Source of the DNA: Ophelia neglecta
Lineage: Eukaryota
Assembly (NCBI GenBank): GCA_965285935.1
Contig: OZ260666.1
Coordinates: 11,036,001 to 11,100,000 of the forward strand
Direction: 5' to 3'
Length of the DNA: 64,000 nucleotides
A program made the position numbers. This document shows positions 24,001 to 27,000 of this stretch, piece after piece (positions within the stretch are counted from its first letter, which is position 1; every line of letters begins with the position of its first letter).

Positions 24001-27000
24001 TTTATAACTACCTTACCTAGATATTACCTTTTGAAAACGCCTGCATTGTCCCTGACGAGTAGTCCAATGGTGTTGAAACCAAACCTGGGAAATAAGTATG
24101 GATAATCACAAGCGCAAAACTGCTAATAAAATAATTTAAGATCCACCGCTAGTAAATAAGCAGCTATGACCGAACAACTGTGGTCGAATAACCATAATTA
24201 GCGACTACTCCTCTGCAGGCAGGGTTTATATCCGGTGGCATTCCAAGACATTAACAGTGGATGGTCAATGAACCAATATACGAAAACACTCATATACTAG
24301 ATATTTTGTGTTTTCACCAGAGTATCGTAAAAACAATTACAAATTATTTAACACACAGTTAAAAGGATTTTGCTTACCTGACCTCACTTTATTTGTCTAG
24401 TATATGCATGTATATGTATGTGCATGTATATGTAGGTTTAAAAGGCAAATAATTAAATCTACCAAGATCAACTGCTTCACTTGGCTCAGACTCATAATTT
24501 GAACCTTCCTCGCGTCCCCGACAGGAGTAGGTTGATAACGGACCTTCCTCCAAAGATAAGTCGATTGATGATTCAAAACTAGCATTTGTGATATCTGTTC
24601 CATCACGCTGCCAGATGTAGGTCATATTTGGACGATAGATTTCCGGCAGAGAAGTCAAGTTGACTACACAGGTCAAACCATAGTCTTGAACTATAATGGA
24701 GGCTGAAGTTGGCTGACCTGCATTGTAAACAAATAGAAATTATATTAACCCCTTGGTATCTTTTGTCGAGGTTGGAATGCTTAAAGAGACTTAGAAAAGT
24801 ACTTAGTTATTTTATCTGAAATGTGTTCATCTTAGATTTTTTCTTCCATTGATGAAAATAACAATACCTAGGGTTAACTGATACGACATTTTTTTACATT
24901 TTTGACACTTGATATCAGTTTATTATCCTTCAATTCTGATTAGTTCTGACTTGGTCAAACATTTTCACTATGCAATTACGCACGTGGTTGTGTGTATTAT
25001 ATAAGGTTTTAGCTTACCCCATACAAAGATGATGCCTGAATTATTATAGTTGTTCCCAAAGCAGGAATATGTTCCGGCGTCGTCAAGCGTGACATTCGTC
25101 AAAGTGATATCCGCCACAGAATAATTACTCCAGCCAATTGTGAACCGGTTCAATTTTAGGTATTTTTTTGCCGGAAATATTTCTGTCACCTTTACATTAA
25201 ATACAAGTGTTTGATTATTGTCAAAACAGGTAACATATCGTTTGTTGTCACCACCTGGTAAATACCAGGAAAATGTGGCGTTGTCACCCTCGTAAACCGC
25301 TGTGATTTGAGGACCTGAGAGAGAATATTAATAAACCCGAGTTATATCAAATTGGTTTTAGGTATGTTGATAACAGAACAACCATTTCTAGAGACAAAGT
25401 AAATTGTACTGAAGGCCAGGCATAAACTAAAGGTTACGACCATATTTCGAATGCATGTTATAAATACACGCAGTGCTTAGTATCAGGACTGAATTCTTAG
25501 TTAACTGTTATGGCTATACCAAATAGTTATATTTTCCTCCTACCTCGAGCCTTGCCCCCCTAGCCCTCACCTAGTGACACATTCACATTAATGTGCCTTT
25601 GTTTAATAATTATTTGATTTGAACTTATGTGAAACGTTTGATAGTACTGTTCCGTTTTCTTCTGCCAAATCTGTGTACAAGAGCAGAAAGGCATGGCTCA
25701 CACAAAAATCTATTAAAATTACTTCATAATTCAATGATGTGTTCATAGTTTAAGGTGGACACGAACTCCTCCCTGCCTATGCATTATGATTGCTCCAATA
25801 ACTTGTAATAACGGTAATTGTTTTTAATACATTCGTCTATAGAAACTATAGTACTACTTCATTTTTAGGGCGTCACAAGTTTGTTTATACTAGCCAAGCG
25901 GTTTCGGAACGTGTAGCTGCACATCCATAAGCAACATGTTTGGAAGAACGCAGCCCCCCCCCCCCCAAGAGCTCCGTGTTTTGTGTACTGTGTATTTCAT
26001 TCAACAAAACCAAGTACATTACTTACTGTCTGCAGCCAGTGCCAATAAACAGACAATTTGCAAAACACAAATGACATACAATGTAGAATTTGGCATCAGC
26101 AGATCCATTCCTCTGTAGAACCGCATCCTGGACCTACATAGAAAAAAAACAGTACTTAACTTAGCATACACACGCAAGCACATCCAAACCCACTACAGGG
26201 GTTGTATTAAATGCGAATGTTGGCGCGAAAGACCAAAATAGTACTTAAACTACTTGATTTAAAAATTGGAATTATCGGCTAGTTCGGCAATATTGGCGTG
26301 TATACATTTGGCAATTTGAGAATTTCAGCAGCAGGTCACAGGTGCAGGGGATGGATGGAATGAAACAACTTAAGTGGCAAAATAATGCCAATGTCGGGCG
26401 CTTTTGTGATTAGTAGAAGCTGTGTTGAGATGTTGGTAGTATATAAGCACCATCACTCTTACGCAGGGAGTGAGAGAGACTTTGCTCAACTATAAGACGG
26501 AATCCTAGTCCTTGTGTAGATGTGATGCTCCTGTATCGTAGTCTCAGAGCGCAGGATATCCACTTGCACGTTTTGCAATATCGTTGGTTTGAGCCCACAT
26601 CAAATCGACAATTATTTGCCTCTTCAGGCTTGGGTTGTGCTACATTAAAAATGCACCAACAATTTTCCCCGCATTATAAATATCCATCAGTAGATAGGCC
26701 TACGCACATTATAAGGCTATTCGTCTATCTATTTAAAGTAGATGTGATAGCCAGTGTGACAATTGGGGGGGGGGGGGAGGGGGAGGGGTGCATTAGCGTG
26801 GGTAAAATAATAAGTACGCCCTCTAACTACACTATATTAAAACACATCATACTTTTAGCTTCAACATATGGATCTCACACTGGCTTGTAGTATGGATAGT
26901 GACCCTTCTTAAATAGTAAATGACCTGGTTTAGTGTACAAGAAGTCACTAGCTAGCTAGCCTGTAGAGCTGCTTATACTCAGGCACATACTATATAATAA

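What the first reader, a model, noticed from the sequence alone, without database searches (positions are those of the whole stretch)
25018..25314. V-set domains with a Cys/Trp swap (predicted C-F strand disulfide)
Seen: genes A and C have Trp at the B-strand Cys position (ATFSW, ANLTW), Cys at the C-strand Trp position (YVTCF, QVNCY), and keep the F-strand DAGTYxC. Gene B keeps the B-strand Trp but has lost the F-strand Cys (DNGTYTL). Established: the canonical Ig core is B-Cys, C-Trp, F-Cys; a C-F disulfide is known in CD4 domain 2, and Trp-for-Cys in Alr domain 1. Inference: an inverted core defining a V-set subtype that standard profiles would score poorly.
Basis: partly seen in the sequence, partly recalled or inferred. 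Interest (0 to 1): 0.68.

Follow-up and report, generated by a model that had tools for sequence, protein, structure and literature searches.

The report
Ig V domains with swapped core
Two neighbouring receptor genes encode an antibody-like outer domain in which the usual core cysteine and tryptophan have changed places, probably moving the stabilising disulfide bond to a new position, though no usable structure model could be obtained to confirm the bond.

Summary
25018-25314 (-) is an exact phase-1/phase-1 exon of 98 codons with Trp16, Cys29 and Cys84. A paralogous exon at 63477-63773 (-) has the same residues at the same positions. A third exon, 53102-53428 (-), has Trp, Phe and Leu instead. 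All three sit in type-I receptor genes, and genes A and C keep a canonical Cys-Trp-Cys second Ig domain.

A search of 1.84 billion protein representatives found four more whole-domain relatives (26-42% identity). Both cysteines are invariant (6 of 6) and Trp is present in 5 of 6. Six of the eight V-set hallmark residues are kept. The two that differ are the B-strand Cys (now Trp) and the C-strand Trp (now Cys).

Spacing, hydrophobic parity and a profile-profile alignment place Cys29 at the Trp position, opposite the F-strand Cys. This is the geometry of the CD4 domain-2 cross-strand disulfide.

The bond itself is inferred. The only finished AlphaFold model (single sequence) had pLDDT 37.5 and the alignment-based job never ran. 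A one-residue register ambiguity leaves a rival reading with unpaired cysteines.

Only 1 of 7 family domains reaches Pfam's V-set cut-off. Verdict: a new variant of a known kind, of moderate interest.

The parts
26027..26108 (-). Gene A candidate leader (signal-peptide) exon: Met, a hydrophobic core, then ALAAD and one base, with donor gtaagt. Together with the GT that opens the V exon it makes a Ser codon.
25018..25314 (-). Gene A V-like exon, which is the finding. It has 98 full codons and is phase 1/1. Trp16 is at 25265-25267, Cys29 at 25226-25228 and Cys84 at 25061-25063.
24463..24717 (-). Gene A second Ig exon with the canonical Cys16-Trp35-Cys65 triad, phase 1/1.
21840..21935 (-). Gene A transmembrane exon, phase 1/1.
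21500..21652 (-). Gene A candidate first cytoplasmic exon (acidic). Exons further 3' were not resolved.
63477..63773 (-). Gene C V-like exon, a paralogue of A (38% identity). Trp16 is at 63724-63726, Cys29 at 63685-63687 and Cys84 at 63520-63522. Its leader exon would lie beyond the window end.
63083..63334 (-). Gene C second Ig exon with the canonical Cys-Trp-Cys triad, 46% identical to A's.
62103..62201 (-). Gene C transmembrane exon, phase 1/1.
53102..53428 (-). Gene B V-like exon without the Cys-Trp-Cys 'pin'. Trp20 (53367-53369) is at the B-strand Cys position, Phe34 (53325-53327) at the C-strand Trp position and Leu85 (53172-53174) at the F-strand Cys position.
52500..52835 (-). Gene B second extracellular exon. 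It has 4 Cys and no Pfam or PDB sequence match.
52161..52472 (-). Open frame holding gene B's transmembrane exon. The donor is at 52161 and the 5' boundary was not determined.

Best explanation
Genes A and C encode type-I membrane receptors built as leader, N-terminal V-like Ig domain, canonical Ig domain, transmembrane segment and tail.

In the N-terminal domain the Ig 'pin' is rewired:
- The B-strand Cys is replaced by Trp16, whose side chain fills the core.
- The C-strand Trp is replaced by Cys29.
- Cys29 lies directly across from the retained F-strand Cys84 on the neighbouring strand of the GFCC' sheet. The two probably form a within-sheet (cross-strand) disulfide, as in CD4 domain 2.

The rest of the V frame is kept: the A'-B turn Gly, the Arg-Asp salt bridge, the E-strand Leu and the tyrosine corner. 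The domain most likely still folds as a V-type sandwich and serves as the outer, ligand-facing domain.

Gene B shows a related state with no disulfide at all (Trp, Phe, Leu).

Shown: the exons, the residues, their conservation and the family.
Inferred: the strand register of Cys29, the bond, and the receptor function.
For: 1. Gene structure. Exact phase-1 exons sit in receptor-type gene models. The leader exon joins straight onto the V exon, so the exon encodes the whole first domain.

2. Cysteine bookkeeping. Exons A and C each have exactly two Cys. The second Ig domain has its own canonical pair. Cys29 and Cys84 therefore have only each other as partners in the ectodomain.

3. Conservation. 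Across six sequences of 26-42% identity both Cys are kept in 6 of 6 and Trp16 in 5 of 6. Four of the six have no other Cys in the domain.

4. V-set hallmarks. The list of eight is quoted in PMC9546547, section 10. Gly9 is kept 6/6, Arg/Lys56 5/6, Leu/Ile71 6/6, Asp78 6/6, Tyr/Phe82 6/6 and Cys84 6/6. Only the Cys23 and Trp41 equivalents differ.

5. Spacing. Trp16 to Cys29 has 12 intervening residues. That is the commonest Cys-to-Trp spacing in 64 canonical domains cut from the search hits: 12 in 32 of them, 11 in 25, and 13 in none.

6. Profile alignment. Global profile-profile alignment of the family to 16 canonical long-spacing Ig domains is gapless over the first 49 columns. It pairs Trp with the B Cys, 'v-x-C' with 'v-x-W', and Cys with the F Cys (probability 96%).

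7. Parity. The aliphatic column 27 (V,V,L,V,V,L) is in phase with Cys29. Column 30 (F,Y,F,K,F,I) tolerates Lys, so it is not a core position.

8. Geometry from the literature. The IgStrand paper (passages read) states that the F-strand Cys and C-strand Trp anchors are in-facing backbone neighbours in the GFCC' sheet.

9. Precedent. CD4 D2 links Cys130 and Cys159 on strands C and F, and it did so after losing the B-strand Cys (PMC4354306 passages).
Against: - No structural support exists. The one finished model has pLDDT 37.5 and pTM 0.26, with all 98 residues below 50.
- hhalign of the family against gene B (E 9.4e-4, probability 22%) and MAFFT are gapless between strands B and C. They put Cys29 opposite gene B's His33 and put column 30 opposite Phe34. 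Phe34 is the residue that aligns with the Trp of VL. If that register held, Cys29 would face outwards.
- A position-score test of registers against canonical Trp contexts is weak. All sums are negative: register 0 scores -28.2, +1 scores -43.8, -1 scores -49.4, but +2 scores -19.0 and -2 scores -26.2.
- The canonical set used was chosen by a pattern that fixes the B and F anchors. Default local hhalign aligned only columns 54-88.
- In more distant B-strand-Trp domains (P0037/68-153, P0017/595-681) the Cys in the same column looks like a Trp+1 Cys paired with a C' Cys.
- The family evidence rests on six sequences. Four of them are short unnamed open frames.
Confidence: 0.62

Rival explanations
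1. Cys29 sits one residue off the Trp position and points out of the sheet, as the Cys of the YWCR motif does in CD300/pIgR-type V domains. No intradomain bond forms. Cys84 is a buried lone thiol next to Trp16. Cys29 is free or makes an intermolecular bond, giving a covalent dimer.
For: - Gapless alignments of the family to gene B put column 30, not column 29, opposite the Trp-equivalent Phe.
- The family profile aligns Cys29 to the C-strand Cys of pIgR D2, which has a second Cys seven residues later.
- CD300 V domains carry YWCR and two disulfides (PMC3031540 passage).
- Distant relatives have that Cys-x6-Cys pair together with a B-strand Trp.
- Lone F-strand Cys residues are known in chicken CD4 D2 and in fish CD4 D1.
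Against: - The narrow family has no Cys in the C' region to pair with.
- Two invariant unpaired Cys in an extracellular domain would be unusual.
- The conserved aliphatic column 27 is in phase with Cys29, unlike in the distant relatives, where columns 26 and 28 are the hydrophobic ones.
- Thirteen intervening residues, which is what column 30 as the Trp position would require, was seen in 0 of 64 canonical domains.
Confidence: 0.22
2. Trp16 is the ordinary C-strand Trp of a domain whose A and B strands are missing or encoded elsewhere. Cys29 then lies on strand C'.
For: hhalign of the family against the genes' own canonical second Ig domain picked a 10-column match, NATFSWYLPG to NMTYIWQRDG.
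Against: - That match has probability 0.26% and E 0.23.
- Only 15 residues precede Trp16, and the leader exon joins directly onto the V exon.
- The Gly at position 9, seven residues before the Trp, fits the A'-B turn.
- Trp16 to Cys84 is 68 residues. From recall, that is the usual B-Cys to F-Cys distance of V domains.
- A C' Cys could not reach the F strand.
Confidence: 0.04
3. The domain is fibronectin-type-III-like rather than a V-type Ig domain. A conserved B-strand Trp is an FN3 hallmark (recalled).
For: - The S-W-x-L-P stretch after strand B resembles the FN3 B strand (recalled).
- There is a weak fn3_4 hit in gene C (E 0.085).
Against: - No FN3 model reaches E 0.01.
- The best Pfam hits are ig, V-set and Ig_3.
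- The DxGxYxC motif and the Arg-Asp pair are Ig V/I features.
- The C-to-F spacing is of V-domain length.
Confidence: 0.05
4. The exons are decayed pseudogene pieces or chance open frames, so the residue pattern means nothing.
For: - The locus is rich in retrotransposon ORFs.
- Gene B's transmembrane exon is triplicated, and one copy is frameshifted.
Against: - The frames are intact, with consensus splice sites and matching phases in three genes.
- Paralogues at 38-46% identity keep the hallmark residues.
- There are four database relatives.
Confidence: 0.03

Closest known systems
CD4 domain 2 (cross-strand Cys130-Cys159 disulfide on strands C and F)
   Same: The canonical F-strand Cys is kept, the B-strand Cys is lost, and a new Cys on strand C allows a within-sheet bond. 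The evolutionary route runs through a lone F-strand Cys (PMC4354306 passages).
   Different: CD4 D2 is a short, internal C-like domain of vertebrates with Leu at the B-strand position. Here the domain is an N-terminal domain of V length with Trp at that position, and the bond is only inferred.
Hydractinia Alr domain 1 (V-set without the pin)
   Same: Both are N-terminal V-type domains of clustered receptor genes. The B-strand Cys is replaced by Trp, Phe or Tyr. Both are poorly seen by Pfam: 6 of 29 Alr sequences at E<0.01. The salt bridge and the Leu are kept (PMC9546547 section 10).
   Different: All Alr domain 1 sequences lack both Cys, and hydrophobic residues replace Trp41 and Cys104. Genes A and C keep the F-strand Cys and add a C-strand Cys. 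Only gene B (Trp/Phe/Leu) resembles the Alr state. Homology to Alr was not tested.
Canonical Ig V-set domain (Pfam PF07686)
   Same: Six of the eight hallmark residues are present, the spacing is V-like, and the F strand carries DxGxYxC.
   Different: The B-strand Cys and the C-strand Trp have exchanged identities. Only 1 of 7 family domains reaches the gathering score.
CD300/pIgR/TREM-type V domains with a YWCR motif and two disulfides
   Same: They have a Cys on strand C next to the Trp position. The family profile aligns to pIgR D2 over profile positions 3-87.
   Different: Those domains keep the B-F bond and pair the extra Cys with a C' Cys. The family here has neither a B-strand Cys nor a C' Cys.

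Membership tests
Ig V-set (hallmark list quoted in PMC9546547) | Gly in the A'-B turn (Gly16) | tested here: met
   Gly9 in 6 of 6 sequences, seven residues before position 16
Ig V-set | Cys on strand B (Cys23) | tested here: not met
   Trp in 5 of 6 sequences and Gly in 1 of 6. Gene B also has Trp.
Ig V-set | Trp on strand C (Trp41) | tested here: not met
   Cys in 6 of 6 at the aligned column. Gene B has Phe.
Ig V-set | Arg75-Asp98 salt-bridge residues | tested here: met
   Arg/Lys56 in 5 of 6 and Asp78 in 6 of 6. This is a sequence-level test only.
Ig V-set | Hydrophobic Leu89, the Tyr102 corner and Cys104 | tested here: met
   Leu71 in 5 of 6 (Ile in 1). Tyr82 in 5 of 6 (Phe in 1). Cys84 in 6 of 6.
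Ig V-set | Pfam PF07686 gathering score (26 bits) | tested here: inconclusive
   A 23.1, B 21.3, C 26.1. P0007 17.7, P0023 19.4, P0028 no hit at E<=0.01, P0038 24.8. So 1 of 7 reaches the cut-off. PF00047 'ig' is reached by 2 of 7 (A 28.5, P0038 23.2).
Ig V-set | Nine-strand V frame with C' and C'' | not testable with these tools
   The only model has pLDDT 37.5. The alignment-based job never completed.
CD4-D2-type C-F cross-strand disulfide | F-strand Cys kept and B-strand Cys absent | tested here: met
CD4-D2-type C-F cross-strand disulfide | Cys on strand C directly opposite the F-strand Cys, in-facing | tested here: inconclusive
   In favour: spacing, profile alignment and parity. Against: the gapless alignments to gene B and the weak register scores.
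CD4-D2-type C-F cross-strand disulfide | Bonded sulfurs (SG-SG about 2 Å) | not testable with these tools
   There is no usable model and no coordinates are returned.
Alr-type pin-less V domain | Aromatic residue at the B-strand Cys position and no Cys at either pin position | tested here: not met
   A and C keep Cys84 and have Cys29. Gene B alone meets the feature, with Trp/Phe/Leu.
Alr-type pin-less V domain | Sequence homology to Alr proteins | not tested
   No Alr sequence was in hand, and the supplements of PMC9546547 are closed.
CD300/pIgR two-disulfide V domain | B-F bond plus a Cys after the C-strand Trp that pairs with a C' Cys | tested here: not met
   The six family sequences have no B-strand Cys and no conserved C' Cys.
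Fibronectin type III | Match to FN3 profiles | tested here: not met
   The only hit is fn3_4 at E 0.085 in gene C. The relatives have none.

The most novel reading that the evidence does not exclude
A lineage-restricted receptor family has independently reinvented the CD4 domain-2 solution in a V-type domain. A Trp plugs the core where the B-F bond used to be, and a strained cross-strand C-F disulfide staples the ligand-facing sheet. By analogy with CD4 D2, that bond could be redox-labile.

The presumed intermediate states survive side by side:
- a B-strand Trp with a lone F-strand Cys in distant relatives;
- a fully pin-less domain in gene B;
- the rewired pin in genes A and C.

That would make the stepwise rewiring of the most conserved motif of the Ig fold directly testable.
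Probability: 0.3. Interest if true: 0.62.

Novelty: new variant of a known kind. Interest (0 to 1): 0.45.

Why it matters
The Cys-Trp-Cys pin is the defining sequence signature of the Ig fold, and profile searches depend on it.
- A conserved family that keeps the V frame but exchanges the identities of two pin residues shows another way the core can be built.
- It explains why such domains fall below curated cut-offs.
- It gives a seed for finding more of them in poorly annotated animal genomes.
- If the C-F bond is real, it is a second, independent example of the CD4 D2 cross-strand disulfide, a type discussed as a redox switch.

Tried and rejected
**Structure prediction**
- The single-sequence AlphaFold model of exon A has pLDDT 37.5 and was not used. 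No fold search was run on it, because matches to such a model are meaningless.
- The alignment-based job was not accepted. It was accepted and interrupted. It was not accepted again.
- Model coordinates are not exposed, so no SG-SG distance could be taken.

- ESM Atlas look-ups failed for exon A, P0007 and P0038.
The organisms and names of the relatives are therefore unknown, and the source organism of the window stays unidentified.

**Searches that added little**
- Word-index homologue searches gave nothing for exon A among longer proteins (0 of 85 candidates).
- With the profile they returned only P0023, P0028 and P0038 among 741 candidates of similar length.
- Among 7998 longer candidates they returned three generic multi-Ig proteins.
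- PDB sequence searches with exon A, exon C and P0007 align mainly the E-F motif.
- Default local hhalign against canonical domains covered only columns 54-88.
- The register score test was weak.
- Gene B exon 2 has no Pfam or PDB sequence relative.
- No tRNA or Rfam family is present in the window.

**Literature**
- Searches for a described Trp/Cys-swapped Ig domain found none. That covers only the held open-access library.

**Not used or not done**
- Bacterial and archaeal genome contigs and the phage, plasmid and E. coli collections were not searched, because they do not fit an animal locus.
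Full report
**What is there**

The window is AT-rich (GC 0.33-0.43), carries several non-LTR retrotransposon reading frames and has no tRNA or Rfam hit. I do not take it for human. The Ig exons find only distant relatives. Nothing here names the organism: the cluster and Atlas look-ups that might have done so were unavailable.

The finding's interval, 25018-25314 on the minus strand, is an exact exon.
- It follows an ag acceptor, starts GT CCT, and ends TGG G before gtaagc. It is therefore 297 nt long and phase 1 at both ends.
- Its 98 full codons contain ATFSW (Trp16), YVTCF (Cys29) and DAGTYSC (Cys84).
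- A paralogous exon at 63477-63773 (-) has the same length and the same Trp16, Cys29 and Cys84. The two are 38% identical (37 of 98 residues).
- A third V-like exon at 53102-53428 (-) has ASFVW and DNGTYTL.

**Gene models**

All work was done exon by exon.

- Gene A has the following exons:
  - a candidate leader exon at 26027-26108 (a hydrophobic signal-like peptide with a gtaagt donor, whose last base completes a Ser codon with the first two bases of the V exon);
  - the V exon;
  - a second Ig exon at 24463-24717;
  - a transmembrane exon at 21840-21935;
  - an acidic cytoplasmic exon at 21500-21652.
- Gene C has the V exon, a second Ig exon at 63083-63334 and a transmembrane exon at 62103-62201. 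Its leader would lie beyond the window end.
- Gene B has the V exon, an unassigned four-Cys exon at 52500-52835, and a transmembrane exon ending at 52161.

The second Ig domains of A and C are 46% identical and keep the ordinary Cys16, Trp35 and Cys65/66. The unusual pattern therefore belongs to the N-terminal domain only. It is not an artefact of frame or assembly.

**A family, not a one-off**

phmmer of exon A against 1.84 billion representatives gave 55 proteins at E<=1e-3. Most are giant multi-Ig proteins that match many times over the E-F motif. Four short proteins match the whole domain once:
- P0007: E 1.3e-13
- P0023: E 8.6e-6
- P0028: E 2.1e-5
- P0038: E 1.2e-4

In the six-sequence alignment (pairwise identity 26-42%) 13 columns are invariant, and both cysteines are among them. 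Trp16 is kept in 5 of 6 sequences (Gly in P0023). Four of the six have no other Cys in the domain.

The word-index searches added nothing further:
- 0 of 85 candidates for exon A among longer proteins;
- 3 of 741 candidates of similar length, all among the four already found;
- 3 generic multi-Ig proteins of 7998 longer candidates.

Within the window, the family HMM finds only exons A and C, plus gene B marginally (E 0.013).

**Is it a V-set domain?**

Pfam sees only the C-terminal half.
- The V-set model gives A 23.1 bits (matching residues 47-86 only), B 21.3 and C 26.1, against a cut-off of 26.
- The four relatives score 17.7, 19.4, no hit and 24.8.
- So 1 of 7 reaches the V-set cut-off. 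Two of 7 reach the generic 'ig' cut-off.
- PDB sequence searches likewise align mainly residues 55-95 to the E-F motif of contactins, titin, CEACAMs and others.

Against the eight V-set hallmark residues listed in PMC9546547 (section 10 read in full), the family keeps six:
- the A'-B Gly (Gly9, 6/6);
- the Arg-Asp pair (Arg/Lys56 5/6, Asp78 6/6);
- the E-strand Leu (Leu/Ile71);
- the tyrosine corner (Tyr/Phe82);
- the F-strand Cys (6/6).

The two that differ are exactly the B-strand Cys (now Trp) and the C-strand Trp (now Cys).

**Strand assignment**

Trp16:
- The motif G-x-x-A-x-[FL]-x-W matches the canonical G-x-x-V-T-L-x-C in spacing and in the in/out alternation of columns 12, 14 and 16.
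- The family profile aligns over positions 3-87 to pIgR domain 2, with Trp opposite the Cys of 'VTIEC'. The domain i-Evalue is only 0.16.
- A global profile-profile alignment to 16 canonical long-spacing Ig domains cut from the search hits puts Trp on the B-strand Cys (probability 96%).
- For gene B, phmmer gives weak but end-to-end alignments to kappa light-chain V domains (E 0.035-0.13). Its Trp lies opposite the Cys of 'VSLSC', its Phe in MHFY opposite the Trp of 'LHWY', and its Leu opposite the F-strand Cys.

Cys29:
- Twelve residues lie between Trp16 and Cys29. This is the commonest Cys-to-Trp spacing in 64 canonical domains (12 in 32 of them, 11 in 25, 13 in none).
- The alignment is gapless there and pairs 'v-x-C' with 'v-x-W'.
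- The aliphatic column 27 is in phase with Cys29. Column 30 (F,Y,F,K,F,I) tolerates Lys and is unlikely to be a core position.

Caveats:
- The canonical set was picked by a pattern that fixes the B and F anchors.
- Default local hhalign covered only columns 54-88.
- hhalign and MAFFT of the family against gene B are gapless. They place Cys29 opposite gene B's His33 and column 30 opposite Phe34. That would shift the register by one.
- A simple position-score test favours the parity of Cys29 (registers -2, 0 and +2 score -26.2, -28.2 and -19.0, against -49.4 and -43.8 for -1 and +1). It does not single out register 0.

**The bond**

The following argue for a Cys29-Cys84 disulfide:
- The IgStrand paper (passages read) describes the F-strand Cys and C-strand Trp anchors as in-facing backbone neighbours in the GFCC' sheet. 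A Cys at the Trp position would therefore face the F-strand Cys across two adjacent strands.
- This is the arrangement of the CD4 domain-2 bond between Cys130 and Cys159 on strands C and F. According to PMC4354306 (passages read) it arose after loss of the B-strand Cys (Leu in human), through a stage with a lone F-strand Cys.
- In genes A and C the ectodomain has four Cys. Two form the canonical pair of the second domain, so Cys29 and Cys84 can only pair with each other or stay free.

I therefore think the disulfide likely. It remains an inference.
- The only finished AlphaFold job (single sequence) gave pLDDT 37.5 and pTM 0.26. Its strands at residues 3-8, 11-16 and 25-30 cannot be trusted.
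- No coordinates are exposed.

**Wider relatives and gene B**

Three large multi-Ig proteins among the hits (P0017, P0037, P0049) contain domains with a B-strand Trp and the F-strand Cys.
- In two of these domains a Cys falls in the family's Cys29 column. There the hydrophobic columns are 26 and 28, a sister domain has Arg in the same column, and a second Cys follows seven residues later.
- That looks like the Cys-after-Trp pair of CD300/pIgR-type domains (YWCR and two disulfides, PMC3031540 passage; 'KSLCKKTNQSC' in pIgR D2). It would leave the F-strand Cys alone.
- Other domains in these proteins have Trp plus a lone F-strand Cys.
- Gene B has lost the Cys pair altogether (Trp/Phe/Leu). This is the state described for Hydractinia Alr domain 1, where the B-strand Cys is replaced by Trp, Phe or Tyr and the other two pin residues by hydrophobic ones.

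The locus and its relatives thus show several stages of a rewired pin. I did not test the order of events.

**Comparison and novelty**

The domain works like a V-type Ig domain. It fails two of the eight defining residues in a reciprocal way.
- It resembles CD4 D2 in where the bond is put, and Alr domain 1 in the aromatic residue on strand B.
- It is a member of neither. CD4 D2 is a short C-like domain with Leu on strand B. Alr domain 1 has no Cys at the pin positions.
- Four literature searches found no description of a Trp/Cys-swapped V domain. The library holds open-access papers only, and supplements were closed. The supplements of PMC9546547 might show Alr alignments that bear on gene B.

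I rate it a new variant of a known kind and of moderate interest.

**Unchecked**
- The source organism.
- The names or origins of the four relatives.
- The viral and metagenome contig collections (closed).
- The Atlas.
- Any confident 3D model.
- The joined spliced protein.
- The N runs at 2921-3138, 12518-12649 and 28102-28269, which were left as they are.

Noticed in passing
window 49168-52472: Gene B's transmembrane exon lies in a tandem triplication of about 1.4-1.55 kb. The units start near 49168, 50561 and 52112 and are 86-94% identical. Extra exon copies sit at 50601-50762 (74% amino-acid identity) and at 49208-49359 (frameshifted).
   Followed up: partly
window 20437-20448, 19673-19684, 16361-16372 (minus strand): A peptide motif P-x-x-(E/Q)-L-P-I-Y recurs three times downstream of gene A's transmembrane exon, once followed by PDPYEEL. 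These could be cytoplasmic tyrosine-motif exons or remnants of further gene copies. The 3' end of gene A is unresolved.
   Followed up: partly
window 52500-52835 (-) and 53102-53428 (-): Gene B's ectodomain has an odd number of Cys: one on the A' strand of the V exon and four in exon 2. Exon 2 matches no Pfam family and no PDB sequence. Its fold, and any interdomain bond, are unknown.
   Followed up: partly
window 25018-25314 and 63477-63773, last codons: All six family sequences end the domain with an invariant Phe-Val-Trp. In P0007, P0023 and P0038 (3 of the 4 database relatives) the next residues are Gly plus residues that would be read from a GT(A/G)AG donor. This suggests that these are genomic open frames running through the same phase-1 splice site. 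No DNA was seen, so this is an inference.
   Followed up: no
window 566-1888 (+), 14557-15507 (+), 31094-33436 (-), 34904-38320 (-), 39036-43980 (+): There are several reverse-transcriptase reading frames of non-LTR retrotransposons, two of them with endonuclease domains. They fill much of the space between genes A and B.
   Followed up: partly
window 47638-48393 (-): A 252-codon open frame encodes ankyrin repeats (Ank_2, E 1.6e-23) between the retrotransposons and gene B. It looks like an exon of an unrelated gene.
   Followed up: no
window 23395-23656: A tandem array of a 34-bp unit (about 7 copies, 75-82% matches) lies in the intron between gene A's second Ig exon and its transmembrane exon.
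   Followed up: no
proteins P0017, P0037, P0049 (search hits, not in the window): These are large multi-Ig proteins. They contain several domains with Trp at the B-strand Cys position and either a lone F-strand Cys or a Cys-x6-Cys pair on strands C and C'. The B-strand Trp theme is therefore wider than the six-member family.
   Followed up: partly
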